Of a stretch of DNA of 64,000 nt, positions 465 through 58,200 are shown in pieces. Origin of the DNA: Botryllus schlosseri (lineage: Eukaryota). The stretch lies in contig CM119371.1 in the NCBI GenBank assembly GCA_051294905.1, forward strand, positions 9,302,001-9,366,000, read 5' to 3'. Position 1 is the first letter of the stretch, and the number at the start of each line of letters is the position of its first letter. The position numbers and the translations under genes were made by a program. A model generated the notes under the pieces. It did not search any database. It was not told the DNA's origin and saw only the letters and a list, made by a program, of their open reading frames with translations.

Positions 465-2491
465 TAGGCTGGGTAATTTCCTGCCAAATCAACAAGGGGG
501 TTGCACCAAGGTTGGAGAATTTATATGAGATTTGGCACACTGGCTGATGTAGCTTTAGACAGGCCAAATCCAAATTTTTTTTGAAAAATTCTGAAAAAGT
601 ACCAAGTTATGAGGCTTCAAAGTTTGCACATTTTCCTTGTCACACTTCATTGAACACTGTCAATAATTTTTTCAATGTCATAATTTTAAAGGTAAAAAGC
701 CGTCAGCGTGGCTGAAATTTGGGGACATGATGCTACTGCTATCCAAGAATTCTTAAATTGATGGCCCAAACATTTCAGAGTATGTTATCATAGAAAATAA
801 TGTCACCAAAGACTCCTACTGCATGTTTTGGTACCGAAAGTTTACACTCCCATAAATAAAAAGGGGAAAAATTTTAGAAGCCTAAATTCTGGAAAAATAA
901 TCTTGAATATATTGTCTTTCATTTAATATTGATTCAATTCATTAATTTCCAACTACACCAGTAAAAAACTTCAAATTAATAATTGGATTAGATAAACAAT
1001 GAACTAAAACTTTCAAGGCATTGTTCACTGTGATGTCACAATGCATGGACTGTTAAAGGTGGCTGAATGGAGTAAACTGGCCATGGGAATTAAAGTACAG
1101 TTGTGGCTGAGTAACTAGTCCAATTTTAGTGAGTGAGTGACTTTATTGTCTTAATTTCAACAGGTAAATAACTCATTTGAATGCATAGTTAGAAAGGTGA
1201 TGTCTCAGCTTGAAAATTGCAGTATTGGAAGAAACTTGGAAGAAATTTGCCACAAATTACATTTTACTGCAAAAACCGGGTTGATAACTGTGCCAAGCTT
1301 ATTTCATTGGCCAGCAAGAGAAGATATCTGCTATGTCCCATTTTCTCATATACTTCTTTGCATTGACATGCCTTCAACTTTAGTGGCAGGCAGTACAAAG
1401 TACATGAAGACAATATCCAAAAAATACAGAACATTTTCCATGGATTGGGCAATTGAGATGCTTTTGTACAAGTATGCTACGAGATCAATTTCATTTTCTT
1501 TTAGTTATGTGGTATATGATTAGAGAAACTGTTAATTCCAGACCAATTAGCATGGGAAATTTGGATTGAATTACATGTATTCATTTACAGTAGGCCTATA
1601 CAACCATTTTATGTGAATTTCGTTTGTTAAGCTTGTTTGGTTTGTGACGTCATAATTGGAAATGCTAAAAATTCACAGTAATCAGAAATTGTCCAATTTC
1701 CACCTGATAACGTGGAAATTAATTGTTCATTTTTTGTAGCAAGGTAGAATGCTCATTGAAAAGTCGACTTTTATCAAAATACACCAGCCAAGGCTGTGTC
1801 AACAAAAAGAGTTCGTGTATCATCTAAAAATAGTACATTGAACGCTCTCGTATTCGACATTTCGTGCTGGTGACGTCATATTTTGTGCTACGATTGTTGA
1901 TATACGCTGTTCTTTCGAATTCTCTACTAGTTGCTGACGATTACCCCTGACGAGTGTCAGCCGAAAATATTCGGGTTCATTTTAATATGAATATGCTATT
2001 CAATTGTATATTGAAGTTCTGTACCTCAAAGAAGCTGTTCATTGAAAACCATTAATTCATGAAAATGACCTTAAATTTTTTTTCCCCTTTTCAGATATAC
2101 CACATTCCATTCAAGCTGTAGGAAAATGAGAAGCTGCTGTTCACAAGCCGCACTAACATGATATAGACTTCAAATGGTTCATTCAGCTCACTTTATATGT
2201 TAGTCAGGCTCTTGAGGAGATTTCCACCAAATTTTAGGGTTATCAAACTATCATAGTAAGATATATTGCTGTTTCACTGCAGATTTGATGAAAATCACTG
2301 AAGCGTGACATGCAAAAAGCATGATTTTGTGAGGAGTGTAACTCGGTCATCAGATTGAATTTGAGAAAAAAATGTTGGATTCCCTCATGATAATGACAGA
2401 AGAATCAATGTGCCAAATTTCATAGCCATCCATTAACCTTGGTGCTCATCTGAAAATAAATTTGCTCATTTGGCAGGAAATTACCCGGCTA
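465..2491. mobile_element. TIR DNA-transposon derivative, superfamily uncertain (TAG..CTA ends)
   Basis: TIR gctgggtaatttcctgccaaat / atttggcaggaaattacccggc; absent from the sister copy at 11909-13136. Confidence 0.65.
1765..2040. repeat. Partial copy (loop plus one arm) of a hairpin-forming repeat family
   Basis: Shares ttacccctgacgagtgtcagccgaaaat with copies near 8545, 8965, 38790 and 43440. Confidence 0.8.
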
Positions 2492-7100: not shown

Positions 7101-10100
7101 GATTAAAGTCCAGAGTGTGTCGCTATCAATTTTGAACCTAGTAGCGAATATCAAGTTAATTATACCGTCAACGGGGTATTGCTTAGGTTCGTTATATATA
7201 TGCATACATGCATACCGGTATATGCATACTGATAAAGTACGTCGGTAACTGTCAGCCAAACTGATGATAGAATATGAAACCTCAGCAAGTTTAAACAAAT
7301 CGATAAGATGCAATCCACAATCCACCAATTGACCTATGCAATGCATCCGTGTGATACCATTTTAGGGTGCACCAATTGTTGACGAGTAATATGAAGTATA
7401 AACCAGGGTTATATTGACTCGAGTCACGATTATCTGATGACTTGACTTGACTCGAGTCATTTTCGCAAAATTCAGAAATGACTCGACTCGAGTCAATCTG
7501 TGTATTGACTCGACTTGGACTCGAGTCCTTGCGCATGACTCGAACCAAGTCATATGACTCGAGACTCATTGTAATTTCGAAGAATAGTTAAGTAACCACA
7601 GTACTGGGACTTCGTCTATTGCTACTGGACTTGAAAAAGCCACCAGAAACTGCTAAAAGTGAGAAAATTAGAGCTATAGGTATAAAGTGGGTTAAGAAGA
7701 CTTTAGCTGGAAACTGAGCAGTCAACACAATGACTTGGACTCGACCCTCTGCTAGCTGACTTGGACTGGGACTTGACTCGGTGGTGAATTGAAAATGACT
7801 CGACTTGACTCGAGTCAAAACTATAAAAGTGAGATTGAGTTGTGACCTGGAGCCTTGTGACTTGGTTACAACCCTGGTATAAACTGTATCGTTCTGATCT
7901 AAATCATACAAGTGTTTCGCTAAGACAGTGGTTCTTAAACTCTTTAAACCGTGACCATGATCTGAGTTTGAATGGCATCTCGCGACCCAAGAGTCACACA
8001 CCAAAAAGAATACATTTTTAATATTATTATGCTACGTTTTTACGGGCATATGTGGCATAGATAACTTCTCTTCGTTTGCAATCAATTTGTTTGGGACATT
8101 CCGATGGAGACCTATTTACACCGTGTTTGTATTCTTGACGCTTTTGACTTCCAGGTGGGAACTACCTTCCTTATTATTCCACTCGGGATGGAATCGATGG
8201 GTTTGGATCGGACCGCCGCGTCAATTTTACTCGCATGCCAATCAGCCGGAGACCTTGTCGGAAGGGTGATGGGCGGATTGATCGGTGACTGCAGGGGGGT
8301 GAATAAGTAAGTCAAACATATCTTGGTTTTCGTTGTAGGTCGGCCCTTACTAACCTTTGTTCGACGCGACCGAGTGACACTGACTCCAAACAATCGCTTT
8401 GCAAAAATACAGCCCAATTTACAAGCTGACTAACTTACCAACTAAAAGCTATATCGTAGTCGAATTCTATTCACTAGTCTTGTAATCGGGTTTCCGATGA
8501 AACATAGTATATTCAATTATTCATGTTGAAAAAAAAACACGATTATTTTCGGCTGACACTCGTCAGGGGTAATCGTCAGCAACTAGTACAGTAATGGAAA
8601 GAACATTGCACATCAACAATCGTATCACAAAATATGACAATCACAGGCATGAAATTTCGAATATAATCGGGGCAGATAGAGGGCTTATTCTTAATAATGT
8701 ACTATTTTTAGATGATACACAAAGTCCGTCTGTAAGCACGGGCTGGGTTGGCGTATTTTGATAAAAGTCAACTCCAAGGTACCTATATATAAGTGTGAAC
8801 GGCCTTTGCCGACGACACGGAATCTGTCGTCCAGATAATTTTTCGCGTGAACAAGAATATCCATCAAATGTTTGCTGATGGCAGTATTTCATTGTGGTGA
8901 CGTCATATTTTGCAATACGGTTATTGATTTACGATGTTCTTTCCAAGTCTCTACTAGTTGCTGACGATTACCCCTGACGAGTGTCAGCCGATAATATTCG
9001 GGTTCATTTCAATATGAATGTTCTATTCAATTTCGATTGAAGTTCTGAAAACCTTCTTGGAGGTACAGAACTTCAATTTACAGTTGGATAGCATACTCAT
9101 ATTGAAATGAATCCGAATTGAAGTTCTGCACCTCAAAAAAGCTCTTCAATACTCAAAGCGTACCTCAATAGACGTTGTGTTTGATTCATGCAAAATAAAT
9201 AGCGTATCACGTTACCACGAATAGCGTAACTTCTACTTGAGTACCAACGACAACACTATTTTGATCTCCTCTTTGACCATCTCCAGTAATACTCGTTGTC
9301 TTGCAGCTCCATTCTGCTGGGCGTTACGACCACACTGGGTACGGTTTCAACGTACGTCATTACATTCTCCGGGAATTACGCGTTACAATGCGTGCTGGCG
9401 TTCGTTCTGGGTGTGACCTATGCGCCGTTTGGCAGCTTGTTTGTCGGTTTGTACACGGAGGTGTTCGGTCCGGAGAAGATGACGCATGCTTTAAGTTACG
9501 AGGGATTTGTAAGCACCATACTCACTCTGCCCATGACTTATCTTCTGGGTAAGTTTATTGTGCTCTGTTTGAGTGTATCAATCAGGGTTGTAACCAAGTC
9601 ACAAACATCCAGGGTTGCAATGACTCGAGTCACGATTTTCTGATGACTCGAATTGACTCGAGTCATTTTCTCAAAATACGGAAATGACTCAACTCGAGTC
9701 AATTTTTGTATTGACTCGACTTGGGATCGAGTCATTGCGAATGACTCGAACCAAGTCATATAACTCGAGACTCAAACGGCCAAGACCTACATTTCGCTGT
9801 AATTTCGAAGAATAGTAAAGTAACCACACCATTTGGATTTCGTTTATTGATACTGGTACTTGACAATGCGACCAGAAACTGCTAAAAGTGAGGAAAACCA
9901 GTGTATTATAAATGCGAACCATTCGATATCACCAAAGAGAGCTTTAAAAAGTGGGTTTAACAAAAATTTTACTGGAAGCTGAGCAGTCAACACAATGACT
10001 TTGACTCGGACTCGAGTCATAATACCATGACTCGGACGGGACCTGCTGCTCGCTGACTTGGACTTGGACTTCACTCGATGGTGAATTGAAAATGACTCGA

Positions 10101-17132: not shown

Positions 17133-19129
17133 CAGGGTTGTAACCAAGTCACATGGTTACGAGTCACGAGTCAATCGTACTTTTGTGGTTTTGACTCGAG
17201 ACAAGTCGAGTCATTTTCAATTCATCACCGAGTCGAGTCCGAGTCCAAGTCACTGTTTGAAGGGTCAAGTCCGAGTCATAGTGTTATGACTCGAGTCCGA
17301 GTCCAAGTTACAGTATTGAAGTCATGTTCATCCCATGTTTTCAATCCTGCTTTTGGGTGATATCGAATTCCTTGCTTGCCAAACATGCTTATTTTGTCCC
17401 TACCAGAGTCTTGGCACATGTTTATTTAGGTAGATTACGGACAGTTCCTGGCGTCATTTACCAATGCTACAGTTAGACGAGACAGGCCGCCAATATGACA
17501 ACTTTACTAATCTTAGAACTTAATATCAAATATATATCTTATCAGTCTGATACATCACAAATACAAGCATTCAGTTTTTACTACGAGCACATCGACGACA
17601 GCTCACAAATAGCTGATTGAGAACCAACGAATTCAAGTCTACATTCTATCTGACAGAGAACCTACGAATTCACGTCTGCAAATAAGGTGATAGAGAATCA
17701 ACAGATGCATGTTTATTGTTTATGTAGGCTAGAGGTATTTTCACCAGGCCAGCATGCTGTAAAAGCGTGCATGCCGATTGCAGATATGTGCAGTCACATA
17801 AAAAAACTGATACCTTTTGATATTACTAAATGTTTTCCCGATTGCATGACAGACTACATCGCAGTTACAGCACTGGAGAAATAATTGGGGCTGTTAAAAA
17901 ACATTTTTTCCAATTTTCCGGCTAGTTCTTAAAATTGTTAGATTGCCTAAAAAAACTCAAGTTTGGCTCAATTCCAACTGGTAGAAAGTAATGCTCCGAG
18001 AGAAATTTTGGATGAATTACGAACGTAGATTTTCGAATTTTACTGGCTACCTCATGATATTGTTAGATTGTGTCAAAATATGATTCGTAGCAAATTTGGC
18101 TCAATTCCAATTAGAAGAAGCGAAGTTATTAGATATTTTGATATTGGATATTTTGGATATGAAAAAATAATCGGCTTACCACTAGTATGTAATCATATTA
18201 CGCGAAAGAATTCTCACTAAAAATATTCCATTAATTTTCAAATCCACAATTTTCTCTTCTCGTATCATTGATTCTACTTTTTAAAATTTAACCAGATTCA
18301 GTGTTCTTTTAATGCAACATAACAATTTTATCAAGTAGTCATCAAGTAAAATAAAAAAGAAGTTATTTTTGAACGGCCTTATTGGACAATTATCACACAA
18401 CATTAGCCATTGATTATTACTCACGTGCACAACGCAAAATTGCACATACCTAACAAAACGTCAATTGGACGGAGGGTATTGTGTGTTTTCACAGACTGCC
18501 GATCAAATCAATGATGAGTTACACTTCAAAAATACCGAAGTGGAAAGAAGATCTTCAGATATATTGAAGCGGCATGGCCTTAGAATAAATCCACATCTAC
18601 TGAATACACTTTCCACTGGTGCACTAGATGCAGGAATTGACAAGCATATTTGAACCTCACTGAAGAGCATTGGATACTCATTCTTTCTAGTCGTCCAAAA
18701 ATGCAAATAATCATCGCCTTCAAATCTACACATGAGCTTATCGGTCTCTTCGAAGTACTTGACCATCTGAGTCATTGCATTGGCTCTAATTGAACTTTGC
18801 TTCGATTGTTTACTTATATAATTGAAAAGTCTTGAGTACTTTGTGGTGACAAATAGCGATGTCGGCAGAATTCGTCAGATGCGTTGATCTAGCCATTACG
18901 ATTCGCAAATTTCTTCGTCTTCGAGTCATATAAAATAAGTCAAGTCAATGACTTGGGTCGAGTCATGCGCAATGACTCGAGTACAAGTCGAGCCAATCAA
19001 AATATTGACTCGAGTCGAGTCGAGTCATTTTCCATTTCAAGAAAATGACTCGAGTCAAGTCGAGTCGCAAAAAAATCGTGACTCGAGTCTGACTCGAGTC
19101 GAGTCATGACTCGAGTCATTACAACCCTG
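17133..19129 (-). mobile_element. Longer hAT element of the GACTCGAGTC family with a transposase C-terminal dimerisation-domain remnant (18503-18775), inserted into another copy of the same family (17069-~19210)
   Basis: TIR cagggttgtaa / ttacaaccctg, TSD gttttagc/gttttaac; peptide LHFW....YPML......LSIPASSAPVESVFS.CG....R......L....FLKCN. Confidence 0.9.
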
Positions 19130-37076: not shown

Positions 37077-40000
37077 ATGGAATGTTTTGGCAATGAACCA
37101 GTGCAGCCGGACAGTATAGATGTGTTGGTGATTTTGGCCGGTAACATATTGACCTCTTTCTGCTCTCTTGGCATTTATCGCTGCCTGGGAACATTCAACG
37201 GCGGTATCAAGACTGAATTCCACGTCAACAACTACGAGATTTCGCTAGTACAAGGGCTGTTCACGGGATTCATGTCCTTCGGAGGTATGAAAGCATTTTG
37301 TGCATGTATTCTCGTTGTGGTACGGCCAGAGGCGGTAAAATTTGTCCGCGTTATTATCAGTGGCGGCTCGTGACAATATCGGGTGGTGGGGCAGGGGGTG
37401 TACGCAATTTCAATTGTCTAAATGATGTCACAATAGTCTATTCCGACGTGAAAATGTGACTTCGTGTTGGTCACACACAGTTTGTATGGGGTAGACATTA
37501 GGCATGAAAACAAGGTATTTCAAATTATTCGTAAGAAAATATGAAGTACAGTAGTGCATACCTGCATATTTTAACGTTTGTATCAGTAGGCCTATTGCGC
37601 GCGGCGTGATTTCATAGTTTCAAAATGTTCAATGACTAGTTGATTGAATACCCCGAATGAGAGCGTTGAGAATCGTGAGCACATCAAACGCATCGAGCTT
37701 AATTACAGCAGCAAAGTTGATAGAGAGCGATTTTTCAACTACAGGGATTTTCAAAGTTCACCAGTGGTTACTATACTTCGGAAAAAGATGTATTGGAATA
37801 TAAACAAGTGAACTGGAGCCGAGCAATCAGCAATGTAGACCATAGGGTAATATCGAGAAAACGTTTGCAGTCCCAGACCACATGCTTCGGATCACGATAC
37901 CCAATTTCGGTCGAACTAGAGACACTGTCCCCTGGCGCCAGCAGTGTAAAAGTGCATAACAAGGCGTCCTTATCCTTGGATATACGTCAGCCTTTCATTT
38001 TTTATCGAAATACGTTGGGAAAGGGTATGAGTGCGCTTTCCTTTCGTGTGCGATTAGATTAATGGACCATTTCCAGGCTGGTAAGGGCCGAGTCTTGCGT
38101 AAAACACCGAATTTAGCGTAAAATTTATTGAGGAATAGGCTAATCAAGTGATCAGATGTTAGCCGTCATCGAAAACGAGCTAGCTATATCGCGCTTGACA
38201 TGGCGTTATCAGTAGGGCAATTTTTTTTTACCTAAAAACGGAAGATTTTGACCTAAAATATCTAAGTTTTGACTTTTTTTTGACCTAAAAAACTGAAATT
38301 TGACCAAATTTTGATCTTAGGTATACAAATTAGGTGTTTTCACACATAATGTCAAAATTGTACTACTTATCTTCATTTCTACTTGGAACTGTCTGTCCTT
38401 ACAAAGTAGATTGGCCTGAAAAACGTTTTAATCACAAAAACGAGCAAATTTTTTACATGAAAAAACAATTGAATAGCACATTCACACTGAAATGAACCGG
38501 AACACCCCCGGCCGACACCCGCCAGGGGCAACTGCCAGCAACCAGTAGAGAACCGGAAAGAACACGGCACATCAACAATCGCATCACAAAATATGACGTC
38601 ATTTGTGTGACTTGGAGTCGACTTTTATCAAAATACACCAACCAAAACTCTGTCAACAAAAGGAGTTCGTCTACCACCTAAAAATAGTACATTAAACGCT
38701 CTCTCTTTCATGCTGGTGACGTCATATTTTGCGACACGACCGCCGACACACCATGCTTCTTCCAACTCTCCACCAGCCGCCGACGACCACCCCCGACGAG
38801 TGCCAGCCGAAAACACTCGGGCCCACCTCAATATGAATACACTATTCAATTGTATATTGAAGTTCTGTACCTCCAAGAAGCCCATGAAAAAACTAGTATT
38901 TTAACGAAATCTGGCCCTATGAAGAATTCCAGTAGTTACATTACGTATTATGGTGGAAATAATTAAAATTTGTTGTAGTACAACGAACGAAAGACAGCTT
39001 ACTTTCCTACATTCTCGGGTAGAAAGTGTTTGTCCTTACTAAGTAGCTTGCCAAGAATGGAGAAAGAACGTTAAACAGCAGCGGGTGTTGGCTGACAACA
39101 CTGAAGTTGTGTGCACACTGCTGGTGACACACCGTGTTGCTTCATTCTGACAATGTTGTCTATATCACAATTTTTCAGCTTGCGCTTCTTGATATAAGAA
39201 TCATGCAACGTCCAAGCAGTCTTGCTTCAGTTAGTATATTGCGGTACGTTGACCATAAAACCATGTCACTATTTGTTTCATTTGATCGTTTATGATTCAC
39301 AATGAGCAGACGATGGGTCGTTTTACAACGGTAGGCCTATAAAGTAGGTTACAAGCTCTAAAATAGCAAGTGATAAATTCACCGACAGCGCAAAATCTAC
39401 GATACAAACAAAATTCAGAGGTCAGAAAATGTTTGACTTTGTAAACAATTTTGACAAATTTTTGACAAATTTTGTCCTAACGTTACAATTTTGACCTAAT
39501 TTTCATTTTTTTTTGACATGTCAAAAAAAATCGCCCTCGTTATCAGCAATATAGGCTTGAAGGCCTGAATTTCACTATGAAATCTACATTGGAGAATATA
39601 TAATAAGTAGGGCAATTTTTTTTGACCTAAAAAACGGAAGATTTTGACCTAAAAAATCTAAATTTTGACCTTTTTTGACCTAAAAAAACTGAAATTTGAC
39701 CAAATTTTGACCTCACGTATGCAAATTAGGTGTTTCCGCATATAATGTTAAAATTGTACTACTTATCTTCATTTCTGGTTGGAACTGTCTGTCCTTACAA
39801 AGTAGATTGGCCTGAAAAAACGTTTTTTGCTCAAAAACTGACAGATTTTTACATGAAAAACTAGTATTTTAACGAAATCTGGCCCTATGAAGAATTCTAG
39901 TAGTTACATTACGTATTCTAGTGGAAATAATTAAAATTTGTTGTAGTACAACGAAAGATCCTTTCCTACATTCTCGGGTAGAAAGTGTCTGTCCTTACCA

Positions 40001-43000: not shown

Positions 43001-46000
43001 TGAACAGAATTTTAGGTGGGGCAATGCCCCAGTTTCCCTATAGGACGAGCCGCAACTGGTTATTATGGTCCGAGCGGAAGTGGAACCGGTTCCGTAAATT
43101 TCTACACAATTACTTTTCGAAGTAGCAGTTTCCAGTATATATCCAACATATTTCGACCGCAGTAGAAAATGAAAGGTATGAAAATTAAGCTAGTCATAGT
43201 TGCAAAATATAAATTTGGTCGAGTGGTTGCATACGTCTAGCAGCTACACATATCAGTGGCTACTTGCAAAATTCCAACACGCATCTTCCGAACCCGTGCA
43301 AATTCACCACTTGTGTACCATCTAAAAACAGTACATTGAACGCTCTCTTAGTCGAAATCTCATGCTGGTGATGATACATTTTGTGATACGATTGTTGATA
43401 TACAATGTTCTTTCCAATTCTGTACTAGTTGCTGACGATTACCCCTGACGAGTCTCAGCCGAAAATAATCGGGTTCGTATGTCAATTGCTACTTGAGTAG
43501 CGCAAGTTTGGCGCATGCTTTGTGAGTAAAAAGTAGTAGTGCTCTGTCACTGGCCACAGTTGGGCAGGGTTTCACGGACTCTGGTCACTTTTGGTTACTC
43601 TACTTGACACGAGTTATTTTCGAAATGTAAAATGTAAATGTATATAATATTAATAAAATACTTAATTTATTTTTATATATATATAAATATCATTATAATG
43701 ATAGATAATATTGTAAATGTAAAAGAACGCGATCGACCAAAGTCCTTCTGTGCATTGACTCGACTTTTACTCGAGTCATTGCTCATGGCTGTGCAAAGCA
43801 TGTGACTTGGAACATTCTATATCTGACTTGATTCAAGTCTGGTGTACCAAGACCGATACTTAAAAATAGGCCAATAAACTGTCATTTATCCAACAGAACT
43901 GAGAAAAATGAGTATATGATGAATATGAGGCCTTCGATATCACCCAAGACTTGAGTCTTATAAAAAAGCGAGGTAACCGGTGAACAGTAGGAGTCTTACT
44001 CGGACTCTGGCCTCACCACCATGACTCTGATTTAAGCCTTTGCTATCCGACTTGGACTCGGATTTGACTCGGTGCTGAGTTTAACATTGACTTCAACTTG
44101 ATCCGAGTTTGAACTACAAAAGTAAGATTGACTCGTGACTCGGTACCTTGTGACTTGGTTACGGCATTGAATCTGGGCCCGGCAAAACTTTCCAGGTATA
44201 ACTTATATTTTAACAGCGCCGGCGGTCGTATTGGTGAAATGGATTTCCTACCGAAAACTTGGATTGATTTCGAGTGCCCTGTTCTCTTTGAGCTTGTTAG
44301 CAGCGTCTTTTAGCCCGAATTTTGCGATGTACGCGACTTTAGGCGGAGCCACAGCAGGTGAGTAATGAAGATTTCTTGCACGGAAACATCTTGCAAATAT
44401 CGATCTTTCGAACACTCCGACTTCAGTACGGCCTTAGGAAGTCGCTTGGATTCGTTAAGAATTTTTCAAACTGTCGCTTTAAATCGGATATTGCATCTGT
44501 TGGTGCGAGATATCATTATTTATGGAAACGTGTGTACTCCGCAACCGATTCGGACAATGCTCAGACTTGTTTGGTCGCTATTCCAACGAACTTCCAAAAC
44601 CGAATTGCGCCAATAAGACCAATAAACGAATATAAGTTGCATCTGAGAACGTTAATTTCTACCAATACCTAATTATACGTACAGTTACGAGTTAAGGAAC
44701 TCTTGATATACCTTGAAAATATCCAGGTCATCACCAACGACGTCTCGACATGCACTTATCTCGCCACCCTTTACAATACAATCCACATACAATTTACCCA
44801 AATGCAGACAAATTAGTCGCATTAGCTACTTCGATAAAACTATAGGTAACTTCGTTAATTTTTATTTGCTTGTCGAAAATTTCTACATATTTGCAAGTAA
44901 ATTTAGCGATTCCCAAGAGATGCCTAAACGAGATCAAGTCTGCGGAGGCCTACTCGAGTAGCCCAATTAGTTTCAGAATGTAGATCTGGTCGAGCGGTCC
45001 CATCACTACACTCTAAATCGAAAGCATCGATTTAGACACAAAATTGTGCATTCAAAGATGCAATATGGGACAAACACATAAAGTCGACCCAAATCTTTCG
45101 CCGAAGTGGTGTCATAATATGTGCAAGTCCACACTTCATCAGATAAAGTTACGAAATATGTGCTTCTGCTCTCATCTTATCATCTGTCGCCGGCTTTGAT
45201 CACTATGAAAGAGTTTACGTATACATTTTAATAGTCCGGTAAGTCGCCGCACGAGTTGTGAGATCAGTAAGATTGAGAGGGATTGTGAGGTCGACGATGG
45301 AAACGCTGCTGAAATGTAATCGTAATGTCACTGGTAAATGACCAGATCATCCAGGGTAAGGTACGGTACACTCGTGTGTCGATCATGACGTCATCGGTAA
45401 ACCCAATGACCCTGGGGTCCGTTTGCTCCCGCTGGGTTATTTGCAGGGGAGGAATTAAGCTGCAAGATATAGATTCTCAAATGATGCAGCCTTTCTATAA
45501 TAGATGTTGAACGGTAATAACGACTCTCGCGTAAGTAATGCGTGCTTTTAGCCCCGTTTACATATAGCTCAGAAGCAATGTTACCTCTAATTTTGACGAG
45601 TCTGCAGCAAGCGCTCACCTATTCACTGCGCAGTCCCTTGGACAACAGTGCGTAACCACTAAAAAAAAGTCATCTCTTCGGATTTTTTGTGCACAACTGA
45701 TAATTTATGTGAGCAGAGGCTGCGTCAGCTCAAATCAATTGCAGACATGCGTACCTAAAAGGGCACATTGCTCAGGAGCCATGAAGTGGACTGCTGTTTC
45801 ATCAATGTCGCTCCATTATTTTAGAGTGTCGCTTTCTTGCATTTACTAGATTTTGTGATCGTTTCTCTTTTCATTTTATTTACCAACCAAACTGGCAGAA
45901 GAAATTGATCATTTCCATTATATTGCATTTCCTCATTATTGATCATTGATATATCAGCAGTATAGCAATGAAGAAATCAATCAATCAATCATTGTCATCA

Positions 46001-46222: not shown

Positions 46223-49200
46223 CACGCTTCACATCTCTCGGTAACGGCGGAAACTCAGTCACGGTCAAAGGGTCAAATTTAAATGGAGCGACAGGCCGCA
46301 GTACAGTGACTTTGTGGATGTCGATGAACGTGTCGCTAATCTCATCATAGCGGAAGGAATAAAGAAGATGTTGATTGCGTACGGCATTACAAGAGAACAC
46401 ATTGCTTTAATAATTGAAGGTAATTCGTTCAAGAATATCAACATGCGATATGTTATGATTACCGGTATGTTGTCAAGAGGGTTCTTCAGCAAGCAGCAGT
46501 GTGAGAAATATTGGTAGATTGCCTTTTAGATCAACTTGCAGTAGCATCGAAACGGAGTTTCAGAATGTCAGTTAATCCTCTACGTTGATGCAATATGGGT
46601 TTACAACTAGATTTCATGACCAAGTTATATAGATCTTGCTTTGCAGTTGACTCACTTGTTTTTCCAACTACACGACATTTTCATTAGTTCAAAACATGAT
46701 ATTTTATTCATGAACCTATTATAATAATTATTGTTTATATTATCCAGTGAAATAAATCTTATTATATTCATATCAAGTTCCCTCTATATAACACATAGAA
46801 GTGTGTGCAATGTGCATGCTTAGCTCACTAGCTGCTTTTATAGTAGGCTAACACTTTGCCTTTGTAATAGATCAGAGCGGGGTTTCAAATGTTCGTTCCG
46901 AGAAGTGTCGAAGCAAAATACTTACTACTCCTGACGAAATATTTGGAGCAGCGCTAGAGACAGATGAAGAGGTTAGTATTTTTTAACTATTCTAGAATGA
47001 ACTTATTAAATATTGTTTTGTCAGAACTCTTGCCTTCATATCAACCGGAAGGCAATAAGTGGAATGTCCTTCAACCAAATCTTCTACTTGATATTTATTT
47101 GTAGGGAAAACAAGCCGCTGCGGTTATGCTCCTGAGGGAGGGAGTTACGAAATGCAGTAACTGAAGAGAGAATCACAACAGGATTTGAGGGCGATAACGC
47201 TTTATCAGGTGAGTTGTAGGATTTGCTGCTTGCTTAACCTGGAACTGTGTGAACAATGAACCTAGATGTACCATAACGTCCTGATTTGTCAGATTTGTAC
47301 TGATTTCTACTCTTGTCCTGATTTTTTGGCAAACATTGTTCGGCGTTTTCCATAACACCTTGAACGTTTTGCATGCCACAATCTGGCACAAGTTTGAACT
47401 TAACAGACCGTCACAAAAGTACTGCTAGTGCTGTTGTTTGAAAATTTTATGGCTTAACATGCGTGCATGTTGAGTTGGTTCTAATTCGGGGTCTGTTAAT
47501 TTCCAAGTTGCGACACAAACATGTGTTCTAATTCGGGGTCTGTTGAGCTCAGACGTGTGCCTCATTTTGTTTTTGGGTGCTGAAAATATTGTAGGCCTAT
47601 GTTTTGATTGACGCTGTTTACGTTATGACGGTGCAATAAACACTCGAACTGAAAGAAGGCCTCCAAAAATAGATGATTATTAAATGCTTTTCAATTACAT
47701 CATTATTTTTGATAAGGCTATAAATCTAAGTTAGAATGAGCTGGTGTAAATTCGTTTTCGTCCCACACCACGGAAAATCATTTCTGCTGCTAATGTAATT
47801 TTTGGTTTTCCTGACTTCGAGTCCATGAGGATGGCTACCATGGATATAGTGCATAGAATCAGTGAATGTGAACATAATGCTTGTGCCGTTCCAAAAGGAA
47901 CCTGTATGATGGTATACTGATCAAATCTGAATGGATCATTAAAGGTTAGTAAACTTATGATTATGTGGAAAAACCCATACATGTCAGCGACTAGACAGCA
48001 TGTCGTGACGACAGAATTTGCTATCACTTGTTTCCATGAGTTAAGCTTGTTAAACCATATTGGCAAAAACCTATATTGGCCTATTCAGCTCTATTTTTAT
48101 TCAATATGCATTATGCAGAAGTCCCATAAAGGCAATTCTACATAATCTAAATCTTGTGCTTTCGATTCACACATGGATTATTGGCAATATAATTTTACTT
48201 AACATATTTCTTTCAATTCCAGGCCCATTCAGTCCAATTAACGGCCACAAAGCTGAGTCCTCGACATCTCGTACTAGCGTACCATGAAAATGGTGACCTG
48301 CAGTCATGGATCGTGGCGAATGGCATCCGCATAAAGGGATCGTCTCACAATAAAGCGAAACCATTTGAGATGGTGCTGGATCTTCTCGCGTGTTATTATG
48401 TTTGTGACCATATCCAAAAGTTTTACAGTATGTCCTGATTGGATACAAAAATTTGTGTTTCAATCCAACAAGCTTCTCTGTTTTATGAGCAGATTCTAGA
48501 AATCCCAGTAATGATTTTGATTTCGTTTGCTGACTTGGACAACTATACAATTCTAGTACTACTCTAGTTGTCTAATTAGAGTGAAAATAAAATGTGTAGC
48601 TAAAATTCTGATTATACTCTAATTTTGAAAAAAAAACTAGCTATAATTATAATTCTACTTTAATTCGTGAAGTGCTTCGTCTCTCTCATTCGAATCTAAT
48701 TTGTGAAAACAACTGAACCTATAATTCTAATTGTACTCTAATTTGGAAAAACAGTGTAGCTATAGTTCTAATTCTACTCTATAATTTGAAAAAAACTGTT
48801 GCTATAATTCTGATCCCACTCTAATTTCGAAATAAAAACGAGCTACAAATCTAATTCTACTCTAGTTTGGAAAAAGCTGTGTAGCTATAAATTCTGATGC
48901 TACTCTAATTTGTGAAATGTTTCTTTGCTCTCAATCTAATCTAATTTAGAAAACCACTACCGTATAGCTATATTTCTAATTCTACTCTAATTTGAAATAA
49001 AAACTACATCTAATTGGATTCTAAGTCTAATTCAGAAAATATACTGCAGTAGTTATTCTGATTCTACTCCAATTTTTCAAATGTTACTTTGCTCTGATTC
49101 GAATCTAATTTGTGATAACAACTGTGTCGCTATAATTCTAACTCTACTCCAATTTGGGAAATGTTTTTTTGATCTAATTGAATCTAATTTGTGATAACAA

Positions 49201-52200
49201 CTGTGTCGCTATAATTCTAACTCTACTCCAATTTGGGAAATGTTTTTTTGATCTAATTAGAATCTAATTTGTGATAACAACTGTGTCGCTATGACTTTAA
49301 TTCTACTCCAATTAGGGAAATATTTTTTGCACTAATTAGAATCTAATGTGTGAAAACAACTGTGTTGCTATAATTGTAATTCTACTCCAATTTTTGAAAT
49401 GCTTCTTTGCTTTGATTCAAATGTAATTTGTAGCTGCAACTGGTCGCTATAATTCTAATCACATACCAATTTGTGAAATGTTTCTTTGCTCTAATTAGAA
49501 TCTAATTTGTGATAACAACCGTGTCGCTAGGATTGTAATTCTACTCCAATTTTTGAAATGTTTTTTGCTTTACTTAGAATCTAATTTGTGATAACAACTG
49601 TGTCGCTATAATTCTAATTCTACTCCAATTTGGGAAATATTTTTGCGGAAATTAGAATCTAATTTGTGATAAGAACTGTGTCGCTATGATTCTAACTCTA
49701 CTCCAATTTGGGAAATATTTTTTTGCACTAATTAGAATCTAATTTGTGAAAACAACTGTGTTGCTATAATTGTAATTCTACTCCAATTTTTGAAATGCTT
49801 CTTTGCTTTGATTCAAATGTAATTTGTGGCTGCAACTGGTCGCTATAATTCTAATCACATACCAATTTGTGAAATGTTTCTTTGCTCTAATTAGAATCTA
49901 ATTTGTGATAACAACTGTGTCGCTATGATTCTAATTCTACTCCAATTTTTGAAATGCTTCTTTGCTTTGATTCAAATGTAATTTGTGGCTGCAACTGGTC
50001 GCTATAATTCTAATCACTTACCAATTTGTGAAATGTTTCTTTGCTCTAATTAGAAAGTAATTTGTTAAAACGAACGTGTCGCTAGGATTGTAATTCTACT
50101 CAAATTTTTGAAATGTTTTTTGCTTTAATTAGAATTTAATTTGTGATAGCAACTGTGTCGCTATGATTCTAATTCTACTCCTATTTGGGAAATATTTTTG
50201 CGGAAATTAGAATCTAATTTGTGATAAGAACTGTGTCGCTATGATTCTAACTCTACTCCAATTTGGGAAATATTTTTTTGCACTAATTAGAATCTAATTT
50301 GTGAAAACAACTGTGTTGCTATCATTGTAATTCTACTCCAATTTTTGAAATGCTTCTTTGCTTTGATTCAAATGTAATTTGTGGCTGCAACTGGTCGCTA
50401 TAATTCTTATCACATACCAATTTGTGAAATGTTTCTTTGCTCTAATTAGAATCTAATTTGTGATAACAACCGTGTCGCTAGGATTGTAATTCTACTCCAA
50501 TTTTTGAAATGTTTTTTGCTTTACTTAGAATCTAATTTGTGATAACAACTGTGTCGCTATGATTCTAATTCTACTCCAATTTGGGAAATATTTTTGCGGA
50601 AATTAGAATCTAATTTGTGATAACAACTGTGTCGCTATGATTCTAATTCTACTCCAATTTGGGAAATATTTCTGCGGAAATTAGAATCTAATTTGTGATA
50701 AGAACTGTGTCGCTATGATTCTAACTCTACTCCAATTTGGGAAATATTTTTTTGCACTAATTAGAATCTAATTTGTGAAAACAACTGTGTTGCTATAATT
50801 GTAATTCTACTCCAATTTTTGAAATGCTTCTTTGCTTTGATTCAAATGTAATTTGTGGCTGCAACTGGTCGCTATTATTCTAATCACATACCAATTTGTG
50901 AAATGTTTCCTTGCTCTAATTAGAATCTAATTTGTGATAACAACCGTGTCGCTAGGATTGTAATTCTACTCCAATTTTTGAAATGTTTTTTGCTTTACTT
51001 AGAATCTAATTTGTGATAACAACTGTGTCGCTATGATTCTAATTCTACTCCAATTTGGGAAATATTTCTGCGGAAATTAGAATCTAATTTGTGATAAGAA
51101 CTGTGTCGCTATGATTCTAACTCTACTCCAATTTATGAAATATTTTTTTGCACTAATTAGAATCTAATTTGTGAAAACAACTGTGTTGCTATAATTGTAA
51201 TTCTACTCCAATTTTTGAAATGCTTCTTTGCTTTGATTCAAATGTAATTTGTGGCTGCAACTGGTCGCTATAATTCTAATCACATACCAATTTGTGAAAT
51301 GTTTCTTTGCTCTAATTAGAATCTAATTTGTGATAACAACCGTGTCGCTAGGATTGTAATTCTACTCCAATTTTTGAAATGTTTTTTGCTTTAATTAGAA
51401 TCTAATTTGTGATAACAACTGTATCGCTATGATTCTAACTCTATCCCAATTTGTGAAATGTTTCTTTGCTCTGATTCAAATGTAATTTGTGGTTGCAACT
51501 GTGTCGCTATAATTCTATTTCCACACCAATTTGTGAAATGCCTTTTTTCTCTAATTAGATTCTAATTTGCAAAAACAACTGTGTCGCTATAATTCTAATT
51601 CTACACCAATTAGTGAAACGTTTCTTTGCTCTAATTAGAATCTAATTTATGATAACTTTGTAGCTGTAGTTCTTATTTCTATTTGGATAAGCTTAAGTTT
51701 TTCAATTGTGCAAGCTAGAAATTCACACATTTTCGTCTGCAAATGAATGTTCTGTATTGATCTTTCGCTGCAATAAAATCTTTTTTGAGCATAAGCTGAG
51801 TAAAAATTCATGGATGGCTGGTATTAATTTCGAGCTCTGCACCAGTCAACATGAACATACCACTACTAAACACAGGAAAGCCAGGCACACATCGGCTCCA
51901 GCACGTTGTGTGGTAGTTAAAAAAAAAAACGGATTTGGCATGTAAGTTTGCGTTCCTCTGCACGCATTCGAATTTAGAGTGTAAGCTATAGCAGTTATTC
52001 CTAGGCCTCGTTAGAAATGTCAAGATCTATCTTGAATATTGACTATTGGCACTATACATCTATGTAGATAGGCACAATCCACCACCCTATATTCAATTAC
52101 TGCCATGCGTGGGATATTTCACCATTTTGTCAACTATTTAACTCAGAACAGTGATGTAATCGTAGCCTATTCTAAAAGTACTTGGTATGGTATAGAATCC

Positions 52201-55200: not shown

Positions 55201-58200
55201 AACGTCAAAATTCGACACTTGCGACCTATTTTACGACATGCTGTCGTAATATAGAGTTCATGGTGTGCTTTGGGCTTGGCGTGCGTCACAATCCTTAAAG
55301 AGCTGTACGAACCTCTTTCAAAACGGCTCAAGGAACATTCATACGCGAAATCCGGAAGACAACGTATAATCGAAGACCGTTATGTTTAGACAGCACAATT
55401 TATCGACATTTGGCAGTAGGATAGCGACTCGCACTTCTTTCAAATGCACGTTACAATAACACCTTTCCGTCGTCACAGACGGGTGCGAGAAATGATTAGT
55501 GATTTCGAAGGGTTGCCAACGGGGGAAGGGGGGAAAGGTCTAAGAATCACTGGTGGCTGGTGTAAATCATTGTTTTAAATCCTACATGTCTGCCTCCATA
55601 CGTCCCTACATAACCAGGTCGTACTCTATTCATGCTTGTTCAAATTCTTCAGGTATAATTTGATTAGCCTATAGTGTTTCGATGTATCGCGTGGTTTAGG
55701 ATTTTGAAGCAAGTTGTGTTTTCGTGTGCCATCATTTGGGTGGGAATACTCCCTTTGTAGCTAAAGAGTGTCGCCATCAACATTGATTTATTCCAATTCC
55801 ATGTTTACAGACCAGTGGCAGTCGTGAATGAGGCGCCAACCCAAGGAGAGGACGTGGCGGAGACCGCGTTTGGACCGGAGACTTCTGCGGGTCAGCAGAT
55901 AGCCACGTTACAGCCGCACGCTCAAACATACGAGAACGAGGTCATCAAAGCACCAATTGTTCAGCAAGACAAATTCGGGGACGTGATAGATTCAACTGTT
56001 CAATCAGATGAGGAGAAAAGCGTGGTCGTTCAAACAGGTTCGGGAGAGTCGGCTGGGATCCAAAATACACCTGATCAAGCCACGCCACAGCCGGACTCTT
56101 CAGCATACGAGAATGAGTTCATCAAAGCACCAGTTGTTCAGCAAGAGGAATTCGGTGACGTGATAGATTCAACCGTTCAATCAGATGAGGAGAAAAGTGT
56201 GGTCGTTCAAGCAGATTCGGGAGAGTCGGCTGGGATCCAAAATTCACCTGGTCAAGTCACGCCACAGCCGGACGCTTTAACATACGAGAATGAGTTCATC
56301 AAAGCACCAGTTGTTCAGCAAGAGGAATTCGGTGACGTGATAGATTCAACCGTTCAATCAGATGAGGAGAAAAGTGTGGTCGTTCAAGCAGATTCGGGAG
56401 AGTCGGCTGGGATCCAAAATTCACCTGGTCAAGTCACGCCACAGCCGGACGCTTTAACATACGAGAATGAGTTCATCAAAGCACAAGGATTTCAGCAAGG
56501 GGAAGTCGGAGACGTGATAGATTCAACTGTTCAACCAGATGAGGAGAAAAGCGTGGTCGTTCAAGCAGATTCGGGAGAGTCTGCTGGGATCCAAAATTCA
56601 CCTGGTCAAGTCACGCCACAGCCGGACGCTTTAACATACGAGAATGAGTTCATCGAAGCACCAGTTGCCCAGCAAGAGGAAGTCGGCGACGTGATAGATT
56701 CAACTGTCCAGTCAGATCAGAAGAAAAGCGTGGTAGTTCAAGCAGATTCGGGACAGCCGGCTGGGATCCAAAATACACCTGATCAAATGTCGTCGTTGAA
56801 CCGACTCAAGGCTCGACTCAAATCTGTCTTCGACTATACCCTATGCTGTCAACCGATATACATCCTTGCATTCATATCCAGCATGTTGTACTGGTCGGCC
56901 TGGGTGAGCAAGCGTACACTATGAGAATCAATGGGTGGAGAATAGCTGTATTTAACGTATTTTATTTCCGTCGTGACCGTGGGGCGTAAATCCGTCACAC
57001 GGCACTTGCATGTACCGAATTTTGGTTTCGTACCCATTCCCATGAATCAAATACATCATCCCGTTAGGGGATTTATTCCGGGGGGCTGTGGGTTCTGTTA
57101 ACGTGAGGGTTACCATAAGTCCTCATTAGGAGGATTAGCCTCCCTTTTCCCGTTCTTGAAAATGTTATCCGAGGACTCCTATATCACCTCCTTTTTGACC
57201 ATTCGTTCGCCAAATTGTACAGCTGAGATAATGGACAGATTCGAGTGAACATCGGCATAAATGACGCAAAATAGCAAACACGGACGTTCGAGCAGAAATT
57301 TCGTAACAGCGTGTAAATCGGTATTCGAACGAAAGTGATGACCTTTTTTAATATTTTAGTCGAAAACTTGCCCAACTGAGCACTGATCATAGTGATCATG
57401 ATAAAGAAATGACCGGATTTATAATTTTACAAATAGTTTTTCAATTCCAGCTTGCAATATTTAACGTTATTGAGCTGTAATCTGACTGCGGTTGGTTGCG
57501 CTGCGTATTCGCTAAATATATAGTATATTTTCCGACGGGTCTGATCTCGTTCGTGTATATCACTTCGACGTAACATGCAACAAGCCCGTCTTGCAGACAC
57601 AGAGACCACGACATGGCGAGGTTTTTCTTTATGGAACTATGTAAATATTTTCGAATTTATTCGATTTCATAACACGTACGTATATTGATGCGATAAGAGT
57701 ATAACGGCGTGGCAACTCCTATCAAGTTACAGTCTAATTACAGTTACAATCAGGGTTGTAGTGACTCGAATCATGACTCGACTCAAGTCCGACTCAAGTC
57801 ACGATTTTCTGATGACTCGACTTGATTCGGGTCATTGCACATGACTCGAACCAAGTCACGTGACTATAGACTCAGACAGCCAAGACCGACATTTCATTGT
57901 AATTTCGAATAATAGTAAAGCAACCGAACTATTGATATTTAATCTATTGGTACTTTTGAAACTTGAAAATACAACCAGAAACAGCTAAAAACTGAGGAAA
58001 ATTATAATATCATTAATGCGAACCATTCGATATCACCGAACAGAGGTATAAAATGGCTTTAGCAATACTTAAACTGGAAAATGAGCAGTCAACACAATGA
58101 CTCGGATTCGACCCTCTGCTCGCTGACTCGGACTCGGACTTGACTCGGTGGTGAATTGAAAATGACTCGACTTGGCTCAAGACAAAATTGTCCAAGTGAG

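What the first reader, a model, noticed from the sequence alone, without database searches (positions are those of the whole stretch)
38467..38882. Genomic fossil of an ADAR hyper-edited hairpin RNA written back into DNA
Seen: this copy of a hairpin repeat family differs from sister copies (1871-2035, 8510-8640, 8895-9050, 43370-43480) mostly by T>C on the + strand, in both arms. By eye there are about 18-20 changes in the left arm (aatattttcggctgacactcgtc > aacacccccggccgacacccgcc) and about 25 in the right arm (gattgttgatatac > gaccgccgacacac; tagttgctgacgattacccctg > cagccgccgacgaccacccccg). The loop (~38600-38715) has only a few such changes, and the unpaired overhang (~38850-38880) has essentially none. 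Same-strand changes in both arms break DNA palindromy, so this cannot be the ancestral state, and CpG decay or APOBEC would give C>T/G>A instead. The insert has an 11-bp TSD, and the empty site survives in the sister hAT at ~39852. Established: ADAR converts clusters of A to I (read as G) only in dsRNA and disfavours a 5' G neighbour; several right-arm Ts followed by C are spared, though this is less clear in the left arm. Inference: a minus-sense hairpin transcript of a MITE-like element was hyper-edited and then retroposed in trans, probably by a LINE RT, making RNA editing heritable. No poly(A) tail is visible.
Basis: partly seen in the sequence, partly recalled or inferred. Interest (0 to 1): 0.9.

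Follow-up and report, generated by a model that had tools for sequence, protein, structure and literature searches.

The report
DNA copy of an RNA-edited hairpin
One copy of a common hairpin-shaped repeat carries the mutation pattern that the RNA-editing enzyme ADAR leaves on double-stranded RNA, which suggests that an edited RNA was copied back into inherited DNA.

Summary
The 416-bp insert 38467-38882 differs from the four in-window sister arms by 44 T>C changes on the + strand. All 44 lie in the two 135-nt arms (44 of 84 ancestral Ts). The loop has 3 of 36 and the 31-nt overhang 0 of 9. The arms have 0 of 88 A>G, 2 of 50 C>T and 0 of 48 G>A.

All 44 sites form G.U wobbles when the minus strand is folded as RNA. 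That strand folds at -212.6 kcal/mol and the plus strand at -96. An unedited sister folds equally well from both strands. Both helix ends are spared for 11-19 nt (0 of 22 Ts). The 5'-neighbour order is A and U above C and G (29 of 33 against 15 of 29, p=0.002).

An 11-bp target duplication and a paralogous empty site are present. The C-rich arms occur at about unique-sequence depth in contigs from three studies.

Best reading, about 0.75: a minus-sense hairpin RNA was hyper-edited by ADAR, reverse-transcribed and inserted in the germ line. The reverse transcriptase, the repeat's class and the presence of ADAR in this organism could not be tested, because no genome was available.

The parts
38456..38466 (+). 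Left copy of the 11-bp target-site duplication (CATGAAAAAAC)
   Evidence: The same 11-mer flanks the insert on the right. It occurs once in the paralogous empty site and in the read consensus of other host-repeat copies (table 7).
38467..38601 (-). Left arm of the hairpin, which is the 3' arm of the inferred minus-sense RNA. 17 T>C of 32 ancestral Ts, all within 38485-38582.
   Evidence: Pairs with 38717-38851 in the minus-sense RNA fold.
38602..38716 (-). Loop. 3 T>C of 36 ancestral Ts, plus 14 other changes of mixed type.
   Evidence: Matches the loop of sister A in the same orientation and the loop of sister B in the opposite orientation.
38717..38851 (-). Right arm, which is the 5' arm of the inferred RNA. 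27 T>C of 52 ancestral Ts, all within 38732-38840.
   Evidence: A contig of run X1 covers 38707-38793 with 0 differences, and contigs of run X5 cover 38710-38858 (table 8).
38852..38882 (-). 31-nt unpaired tail, which is the 5' end of the inferred RNA. Its partner is missing from the left end of the insert. 0 T>C of 9 ancestral Ts.
   Evidence: It is unpaired with the other arm in the fold.
38883..38893 (+). Right copy of the 11-bp target-site duplication
39852..39861 (+). Empty site in the adjacent paralogous copy of the host repeat (CATGAAAAAC, one A fewer)
   Evidence: The two host-repeat copies are 89-90% identical by BLAST (87% and 93% mean column identity in the MAFFT alignments).
38208..39537 (+). 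Host repeat copy that received the insert (38208-38466 and 38883-39537). It belongs to a high-copy ~905-bp interspersed repeat.
   Evidence: BLAST of the unit against the window; very high depth on the flanks.
1762..2035 (+). Sister copy A, unedited: loop, right arm and right end
8490..9050 (+). Sister copy B, unedited: both arms, with a longer loop in the opposite orientation
   Evidence: It folds equally well from both strands, -214.1 and -213.9 kcal/mol.
43313..43486 (+). Sister copy C, unedited: part of the loop and a truncated right arm

Best explanation
A member of a very abundant foldback (hairpin) repeat family was transcribed in the sense of the window's minus strand. The RNA folded into a ~135-bp, nearly perfect intramolecular duplex with a ~115-nt loop and a 31-nt unpaired 5' tail.

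An ADAR-type adenosine deaminase hyper-edited the duplex. It converted about 70% of the adenosines in the inner ~100 bp of each arm to inosine, and left alone the loop, the tail and the 11-19 bp at each helix end.

A reverse transcriptase then copied this RNA, reading inosine as G. The cDNA was fixed at a staggered break inside another repeat, which produced an 11-bp target-site duplication. The likely primer is the + strand 3' end ...AAAAAAC, annealed through 2 nt of microhomology to an internal site of the RNA. This would explain why the left end is missing and why there is no poly(A).

The copy is in the germ line.

Shown here: the substitution pattern, its confinement to the duplex, its neighbour context, the G.U-only outcome, the duplication with an empty site, and presence in independent runs.

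Inferred: the enzyme (ADAR), the reverse-transcription step, the priming mode, and the kind of reverse transcriptase. A non-LTR element acting in trans is the most natural candidate but was not tested.
For: 1. Single type, single strand. 44 of the 52 arm differences are T>C on the + strand. Arms show 0 of 88 A>G, 2 of 50 C>T and 0 of 48 G>A.

2. Duplex-restricted. 44 of 84 ancestral Ts in the arms, against 3 of 45 in loop plus tail, p=8.6e-8.

3. Extent. 44 of 62 Ts inside the edited zones and 0 of 22 in the four helix-end segments, p=1.2e-9. Overall about 52% of arm adenosines changed. This matches the 'nearly 50%' reported for ADAR-hyperedited inverted repeats of avian retroviruses (PMC12925331, passages read).

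4. Wobble outcome. All 44 changed sites pair as G.U with an unchanged partner. The stem has 132 pairs: 38 AU, 45 GC, 49 GU.

5. Strand asymmetry of folding. Minus-sense RNA -212.6 kcal/mol (z -16.4) against plus-sense -96.0 (z -3.2). The unedited sister B gives -214.1 and -213.9.

6. Neighbour context. The 5' neighbour on the minus-sense RNA within the zones is A 17/18, U 12/15, C 8/14, G 7/15; A/U against C/G p=0.0022. The 3' neighbour is G 8/9, C 10/12, U 17/24, A 9/17 (p=0.08).

7. Direction. The unedited state gives arms that differ at only 3 of 135 positions once the T>C changes are set aside. The palindrome is therefore ancestral and the Cs are derived.

8. New insertion. An 11-bp duplication, a paralogous empty site, and the read consensus of empty host-repeat copies.

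9. Not an assembly artefact and not a subfamily. The C-rich arms lie at low, roughly unique depth in contigs of X1, X5 and X7, which come from three studies. An X5 contig spans the left junction, 38450-38576, with 3 differences.

10. The editing step has precedent. Long inverted repeats of DNA transposons in mRNA are A-to-I edited (Tc3 in C. elegans; PMC12779559, figure legend read).
Against: - No poly(A), no recognisable LINE 3' tail and no L1-type TTTT/AA nick site are present. The primed strand ends in AAAAAAC.
- No reverse-transcriptase ORF lies in the window: 0 of the 125 ORF queries, which overlap.
- The ancestral states rest on only 2-4 sister arms from the same 64 kb. The real source copy is unknown (no genome).
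Only a RASSF8-10 RA-domain hit hints at an animal.
- The kinds of runs X5 and X7 are not on record. 'Independent genomic DNA' is therefore probable, not certain.
- The 5'-neighbour preference for A/U is also what polymerase eta (WA motif) would give. That property is recalled from memory.
- 7 of 15 adenosines behind a G were still edited.
- It is unresolved whether the right end is a true family terminus. Copy A, the fragment at 9120-9150 and the read consensus run on for at least 7 nt. The fragment at 9053-9070 ends at the same place as this copy.
Confidence: 0.75

Rival explanations
1. Same ADAR-edited RNA, different route back to DNA. A truncated DNA copy of the repeat was already inserted here. 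Its own edited hairpin transcript later served in cis as the template for repair of a break (RNA-templated gene conversion) and overwrote both arms.
For: The final sequence would look the same. The loop and tail would be 'converted' without visible change. The helix ends would be set by the truncated locus itself. This route needs neither poly(A) nor a LINE nick site, and both are absent.
Against: The conversion tract would have to span at least 356 bp (38485-38840) without interruption. RNA-templated repair as I recall it involves short tracts and is rare. The 11-bp duplication and the missing left end would then need a separate, unexplained DNA-level insertion of an incomplete element.
Confidence: 0.08
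2. DNA-level strand-specific mutagenesis. This would be error-prone synthesis, for example a polymerase-eta-like WA>WG signature, or an unknown adenine deaminase acting on an extruded hairpin or cruciform of the palindrome.
For: The preference for A or T before the changed A fits the WA motif (the motif is recalled from memory). Palindromes are fragile and are often repaired.
Against: - About 70% of eligible sites are changed in two separate tracts. The tracts mirror each other across a 115-nt unchanged loop and stop 11-19 nt short of both helix ends. A repair tract would be contiguous, and known polymerase error rates are far lower.
- Chemical or enzymatic deamination of single-stranded DNA would hit the loop, not the stem.
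- No eukaryotic deaminase acting on adenine in double-stranded DNA is known to me.
Confidence: 0.05
3. Artefact. The C-rich sequence comes from an assembly or polishing error, or from cDNA of hyper-edited RNA contaminating DNA libraries.
For: The family is extremely repetitive, which makes assembly hard (depths). The kinds of runs X5 and X7 are not on record.
Against: Contigs of runs from three studies (2020 and 2025) hold the C-rich arms. These include one with 0 differences over 87 nt (X1) and one bridging flank and insert (X5, 38450-38576). The X5 version differs at about 4% of positions (12 of 306). That looks like an allele or paralogue, not a copy of the same data.
Confidence: 0.03
4. 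The C-rich state is ancestral or is a separate subfamily. The T-rich family then arose by C>T hypermutation, for example APOBEC-like, RIP-like or CpG decay.
For: C>T is the commonest spontaneous change. Two later C>T changes are seen in this copy itself, at 38533 and 38758.
Against: All 44 C>T changes would have had to fall exactly opposite an A and so create a near-perfect palindrome from a non-palindrome. The C-rich form sits at about unique depth, while the T-rich form is 1e3-1e5 times deeper.
Confidence: 0.02

Closest known systems
ADAR-hypermutated avian retroviruses (Rous-associated virus 1, avian leukosis virus; Felder 1994, Hajjar and Linial 1995). Known to me through passages of the reviews PMC12925331 and PMC8586724; the original papers were not read.
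   Same: An inverted-repeat RNA is hyper-edited, nearly half of its adenosines becoming G. It is then reverse-transcribed, so the edits end up in DNA.
   Different: Those are exogenous retroviruses that use their own reverse transcriptase and integrase in infected cells. Here the template is a non-coding foldback repeat with no reverse transcriptase of its own. The copy is inherited, and it sits between an 11-bp duplication without LTRs.
APOBEC-edited retroelements fixed in vertebrate genomes (PMC4866542 and PMC2873906, passages read)
   Same: A deaminase leaves a cluster of one mismatch type on one strand of a retro-copied element. The cluster is then inherited as a 'fossil'.
   Different: APOBEC acts on single-stranded cDNA and gives G>A/C>T. 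Here the change is A>G on the RNA sense and is confined to double-stranded RNA. C>T is 2 of 50 and G>A is 0 of 48.
A-to-I hyper-editing of inverted repeats in transcripts, such as Alu pairs and Tc3 inverted repeats (PMC4365171 abstract; PMC12779559 figure legend)
   Same: Same substrate type, a long intramolecular duplex made by a repeat, and the same mismatch signature.
   Different: Those edits are seen only in RNA and are not inherited. Here the signature is in genomic DNA.
Processed retrocopies and SINE-like retroposition in trans by non-LTR reverse transcriptases (recalled textbook knowledge)
   Same: A cellular RNA is copied into a new site flanked by a duplication of 7-20 bp, without the ends needed by a transposase.
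   Different: There is no poly(A) or LINE-derived tail and no TTTT/AA target. The template is a structured, inosine-rich hairpin.

Membership tests
ADAR (A-to-I) hyper-editing signature | Cluster of a single mismatch type (A>G) on one strand only | tested here: met
   44 T>C on the + strand among 52 arm differences; A>G 0 of 88, C>T 2 of 50, G>A 0 of 48
ADAR (A-to-I) hyper-editing signature | Edits confined to double-stranded RNA, sparing loops and single-stranded tails | tested here: met
   44 of 84 in the arms against 3 of 45 in loop plus tail, p=8.6e-8. All 44 sites are paired in the minus-sense fold.
ADAR (A-to-I) hyper-editing signature | Roughly half of the adenosines changed in a long perfect duplex | tested here: met
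   52% of arm adenosines overall and 71% inside the zones. The reference value 'nearly 50%' is from PMC12925331.
ADAR (A-to-I) hyper-editing signature | 5'-neighbour preference U and A above C above G (preference recalled from the literature) | tested here: met
   A 17/18, U 12/15, C 8/14, G 7/15; A/U against C/G p=0.0022
ADAR (A-to-I) hyper-editing signature | The organism encodes an active ADAR | not testable with these tools
   No genome is held. Only an animal-type RA domain is seen in the window. Two homologue searches came back blank.
ADAR (A-to-I) hyper-editing signature | Hyper-edited RNA reads of the same family | tested here: inconclusive
   In RNA run X23, 890 of 892 laid reads fit only partly. 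A few reads cover the C-rich bins but cannot be assigned to a locus.
Retroposed copy made by a non-LTR (LINE) reverse transcriptase in trans | Target-site duplication of variable length, about 7-20 bp | tested here: met
   11 bp, with an empty paralogous site
Retroposed copy made by a non-LTR (LINE) reverse transcriptase in trans | Poly(A) or LINE-derived 3' tail at the RNA's 3' end | tested here: not met
   The left junction runs directly from the duplication into the arm. There is no T-run or A-run other than the target's own.
Retroposed copy made by a non-LTR (LINE) reverse transcriptase in trans | L1-type nick site (TTTT/AA on the primed strand) | tested here: not met
   The primed + strand ends ...GAAAAAAC before TAG. 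Other LINE clades have other or loose targets (recalled).
Retroposed copy made by a non-LTR (LINE) reverse transcriptase in trans | An active reverse-transcriptase-encoding element in the genome | not testable with these tools
   0 reverse-transcriptase domains in the 125 ORF queries of the window, which overlap. No genome is held.
MITE / foldback DNA transposon (identity of the repeat family) | Long terminal inverted repeats and no coding capacity | tested here: met
   Arms of about 135 bp in sister B fold from either strand. No Pfam hit lies in or next to the copies. No Rfam family or ribozyme was found.
MITE / foldback DNA transposon (identity of the repeat family) | Complete termini with a fixed-length target duplication across copies | tested here: inconclusive
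   Only four fragmentary or nested copies lie in the window. The termini could not be defined.
APOBEC-type DNA editing | Clusters of G>A or C>T | tested here: not met
   C>T 2 of 50 and G>A 0 of 48 in the arms

The most novel reading that the evidence does not exclude
RNA editing written back into the germ line. A reverse transcriptase copied an inosine-rich, ADAR-hyper-edited hairpin RNA of a foldback repeat that has no reverse transcriptase of its own, and the copy became an inherited locus.

The event turned a perfect DNA palindrome into a non-palindromic locus. That locus still encodes a strong G.U-rich hairpin, but only on one strand.

If the event is recurrent, it is an unrecognised route by which ADAR diversifies and disarms inverted-repeat families. 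It would also leave datable records of past germ-line editing. In the boldest version, the RNA was a hairpin released from a host transcript, as in the transposon-excising splicing described in PMC12779559.
Probability: 0.7. Interest if true: 0.85.

Novelty: new variant of a known kind. Interest (0 to 1): 0.8.

Why it matters
ADAR editing is treated as an RNA-only change that is not inherited. The reverse flow, from edited RNA to cDNA to genome, is documented for a few exogenous retroviruses. A 2016 review calls its role for cellular repeats 'not yet determined' (PMC4982230, passage read).

A germ-line locus with a clean ADAR footprint would show three things. Hyper-edited nuclear dsRNA can reach a reverse transcriptase in germ cells. 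Editing can create new repeat variants in one step: 44 changes at once, with loss of DNA palindromy and a hairpin on one strand only. Genomes may hold a searchable fossil record of past editing, including its sequence preferences.

It also gives a simple search recipe. Align repeats in three letters, ask for one-type clusters confined to the paired arms, and apply this to any animal genome.

Tried and rejected
- Whole genome: none is held. A genome-wide consensus, a search for the source copy and a genome-wide three-letter scan were therefore impossible. The three-letter scan was run on the window only.
- More family copies from public collections: two scans of metagenome contigs gave 0 matches and then 1 match. 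The single match is an unrelated GC-rich stretch, L001.
- Earlier notes of this scan: nothing by place, by sequence or by words.
- Taxon: two homologue searches with the RA-domain ORF and one Atlas look-up were blank.
- RNA evidence: no RNA holder is listed among the indexed runs. In the one RNA run laid (X23), 890 of 892 reads fit only partly. The few reads on the C-rich bins carry other letters at some sites (38499, 38508, 38814, 38823). They cannot be told apart as this locus, an allele, or edited transcripts of other copies. No conclusion was drawn.
- Ribozyme or retrozyme idea: the arms contain a CUGANGA...GAAA-like string. Rfam found no hammerhead or any other family, either at gathering score or at E up to 10 on sisters A and B. 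The only hits were sub-threshold look-alikes of plant hairpin miRNAs. Rejected.
- tRNA-derived SINE idea: no tRNA gene lies in the window.
- Reverse transcriptase nearby: Pfam on 9 and then 116 ORF queries, which overlap, gave only a hAT dimerisation remnant at 18506-18874 and the RA domain.
- Family termini and the usual duplication length: the in-window copies are truncated or nested. The read loose ends give only a weak consensus (agreement about 0.5). Left open.
- Literature: nine full-text searches, with passages of seven papers read, found no report of an inherited ADAR-hyper-edited retrocopy of a non-retroviral repeat. The library lacks most subscription journals. The 2015 review by Knisbacher and Levanon on DNA and RNA editing of retrotransposons was not available to read.
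Full report
WHAT IS THERE. The window is repeat-rich DNA of about 40% G+C. It has no tRNA gene and no Rfam family at gathering score. Two Pfam hits were found: a hAT dimerisation remnant at 18506-18874 and an animal-type RASSF8-10 RA domain in the ORF 55761-56924. No whole genome is held for it.

The finding concerns a 416-bp insert, 38467-38882. It is flanked by CATGAAAAAAC on both sides, at 38456-38466 and 38883-38893. It sits in one of two adjacent copies of a ~905-bp interspersed repeat, which BLAST aligns at 89-90% identity (the MAFFT alignments give 87% and 93% mean column identity). The other copy has a single uninterrupted CATGAAAAAC at 39852-39861. Read loose ends from many other copies of that host repeat also show the 11-mer only once (table 7). 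The insertion and its 11-bp target duplication are therefore real.

The insert belongs to a hairpin repeat family with four other, fragmentary members in the window: A 1762-2035, B 8490-9050, a nested fragment at 9053-9150, and C 43313-43486. Summed contig depth on the parts shared with the family is 1e5-1e6, against 35-180 on the parts peculiar to this copy (table 2). The family is very abundant.

I aligned the copy with the sisters and took their majority as the earlier state. The hairpin parts are the left arm 38467-38601, the loop 38602-38716, the right arm 38717-38851 and an unpaired tail 38852-38882.

| Part | T>C / ancestral Ts | Other changes |
|---|---|---|
| Left arm | 17 / 32 | 5 |
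| Right arm | 27 / 52 | 3 |
| Loop | 3 / 36 | 14, mixed types |
| Tail | 0 / 9 | 2 |

Arms against unpaired parts give p=8.6e-8. In the arms A>G is 0 of 88, C>T is 2 of 50 and G>A is 0 of 48.

Of the 44 sites, 38 have every aligned sister reading T. Using any single sister as reference gives 15-28 T>C. Sisters differ from one another at 8-18 positions without bias. A self-comparison of the whole window in three-letter alphabets (307 and 281 HSPs) finds such a cluster nowhere else.

WHAT THE PATTERN SAYS.

- Direction. With the T>C changes set aside, the two arms differ at 3 of 135 positions. With them, they differ at 52. The perfect palindrome is therefore the earlier state. The reverse direction would need 44 C>T changes that all happen to fall opposite an A.
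- Strand. All changes are A>G on the minus strand, in both arms. No DNA duplex can be the substrate, because the two arms of one strand are involved.
- Structure. All 44 changed positions pair as G.U with an unchanged partner when the minus strand is folded as RNA. The stem has 132 pairs: 38 AU, 45 GC and 49 GU.
- Folding asymmetry. Minus-sense RNA folds at -212.6 kcal/mol (z -16.4). Plus-sense RNA folds at -96.0 (z -3.2), and the + strand as DNA at -43.6. The unedited sister B folds alike from both strands, at -214.1 and -213.9.
- Limits. The changes occupy 38485-38582 and 38732-38840, with 44 of 62 Ts changed. They stop 11-19 nt short of both the loop end and the open end of the helix, in both arms, where 0 of 22 Ts are changed (p=1.2e-9). 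The spared margin at the open end is measured from 38467/38851. This fits a helix that already ended there when it was edited.
- Context. On the minus-sense RNA the base before an edited A is A 17/18, U 12/15, C 8/14, G 7/15 (A/U against C/G p=0.0022). The base after it is G 8/9, C 10/12, U 17/24, A 9/17 (p=0.08).

Four properties match what I recall of ADAR acting on long dsRNA: one mismatch type, duplex restriction, about half of the adenosines changed, and the order A and U above C above G. The 'nearly 50%' figure is also stated for hyper-edited retroviral inverted repeats in PMC12925331 (passage read).

IS IT REAL DNA? Contigs of X1 cover 38707-38793 with no difference. Contigs of X5, from another study in 2020, cover 38450-38576 across the left junction, 38710-38813 and 38784-38858, with 3, 5 and 4 differences. 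X7, from a third study, has depth 35-76 in the C-rich bins. The kinds of X5 and X7 are not on record, and X1 may be the source of the assembly.

Two of the X5 differences, at 38533 and 38758, are places where the window copy has a later C>T and X5 keeps the family's C. The X5 version thus looks like an allele or paralogue of the same insertion, about 4% apart (12 of 306). The same set of edits is shared, so this is one event that has since been inherited. The low depth of the C-rich bins argues against an amplified C-rich subfamily.

HOW IT MOST LIKELY AROSE. An RNA-specific, duplex-specific deamination pattern now sits in DNA. This requires RNA-templated DNA synthesis.

The simplest path is retroposition. 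The minus-sense RNA has its 5' end at 38882 and its 3' end at 38467. It was copied from a + strand 3' end at the nick ...AAAAAAC/TAG. The last two bases of that primer can pair with GU in the family sequence just beyond the insert's left end. A second nick 11 nt away gave the duplication.

The left end lacks the 31 nt that would pair with the tail. In most family copies the right end runs on for at least 7 more nt (copy A, the fragment at 9120-9150, and the read consensus). One nested fragment, at 9053-9070, ends where this copy does. An element lacking at least one terminus is not what a cut-and-paste transposase inserts; this is an inference.

Against a classical LINE-1 type event, there is no poly(A), no T-rich primer and no reverse transcriptase in the window. 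The enzyme is therefore left open. It could be a non-LTR element of another clade, a Penelope-like element, or repair-associated reverse transcription.

RIVALS.
- Cis conversion of a pre-existing truncated copy by its own edited transcript gives the same end product and cannot be excluded here (0.08).
- DNA-level mutagenesis fails on the two mirrored tracts, the unchanged loop and the 70% site occupancy (0.05).
- An artefact is unlikely given three studies and a junction-spanning contig (0.03).
- C-rich ancestry is all but excluded by the pairing argument and by depth (0.02).

COMPARISON WITH WHAT IS KNOWN.
- Editing of inverted repeats of transposons in RNA is well known: PMC4365171 (abstract); PMC12779559 (legend on Tc3).
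- Deaminase 'fossils' in genomes are known for APOBEC on retroelements: PMC4866542 and PMC2873906 (passages).
- ADAR edits carried into DNA by reverse transcription are known for RAV-1 and ALV, and in culture for HTLV-2 and STLV-3: PMC12925331 and PMC8586724 (passages).
- Nine full-text searches gave no report of an inherited, hyper-edited retrocopy of a repeat that has no reverse transcriptase of its own. The library lacks most subscription journals, so this absence is weak.

I therefore rate it a new variant of a known kind.

VERDICT. The ADAR footprint is strongly supported from the sequence alone. Write-back by reverse transcription is the best inference (overall 0.75). The labels LINE, MITE and hAT are untested. 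Interest is 0.8: it is a single locus, but an unusually clean one, and it suggests a search that can be run on any animal genome.

Noticed in passing
window 38882: The last base of the insert is C on the + strand, which is G at the 5' end of the inferred RNA. Copy A reads T at this position, and so do the fragment near 9140 and the read consensus. It could be an untemplated or cap-derived extra G, as described for full-length LINE-1 copies (recalled from memory), or just a variant of the source copy.
   Followed up: partly
window 38533 and 38758: The window copy has T where the family has C, and contigs of run X5 keep C. These look like C>T changes that arose after the insertion. X5 also reads T at 38777 and 38823 and C at 38828. 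The two versions differ at about 4% of positions (12 of 306), through allelic or paralogous divergence.
   Followed up: partly
window 8640-8890 against 38602-38716 and 1762-1870: The loop of sister B lies in the opposite orientation to the loops of the focal copy and of copy A, and it is longer. This suggests flip-flop inversion between the arms of the foldback element.
   Followed up: no
window 8994-9150: Ends of two family members are nested or joined end to end and form a second, ~125-nt hairpin. Rfam in E-value mode gives only sub-threshold look-alikes of plant hairpin miRNA families (best 37.7 bits against a gathering score of 80). I take these as spurious.
   Followed up: yes
window 38583-38601 and 38717-38731: The inner end of each arm carries TGACGTCA, an 8-nt palindrome that resembles a cAMP-response element (the motif is recalled from memory). 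This stretch is fully unedited (0 of 11 Ts).
   Followed up: no
window 18506-18874 (-): An ORF fragment matches the hAT family C-terminal dimerisation domain (Pfam PF05699, E 7.4e-09).
   Followed up: no
window 55761-56924 (+): A 387-codon open frame has a RASSF8-10 RA-domain match at residues 294-355 (33.2 bits, cut-off 27). It is probably the first coding exon of an animal RASSF7-10-like gene. Two homologue searches and one Atlas look-up found nothing.
   Followed up: partly
window 48001-52000: An AT-rich stretch (G+C 0.31-0.32) with strong negative AT skew (-0.11 to -0.15), unlike the rest of the window.
   Followed up: no
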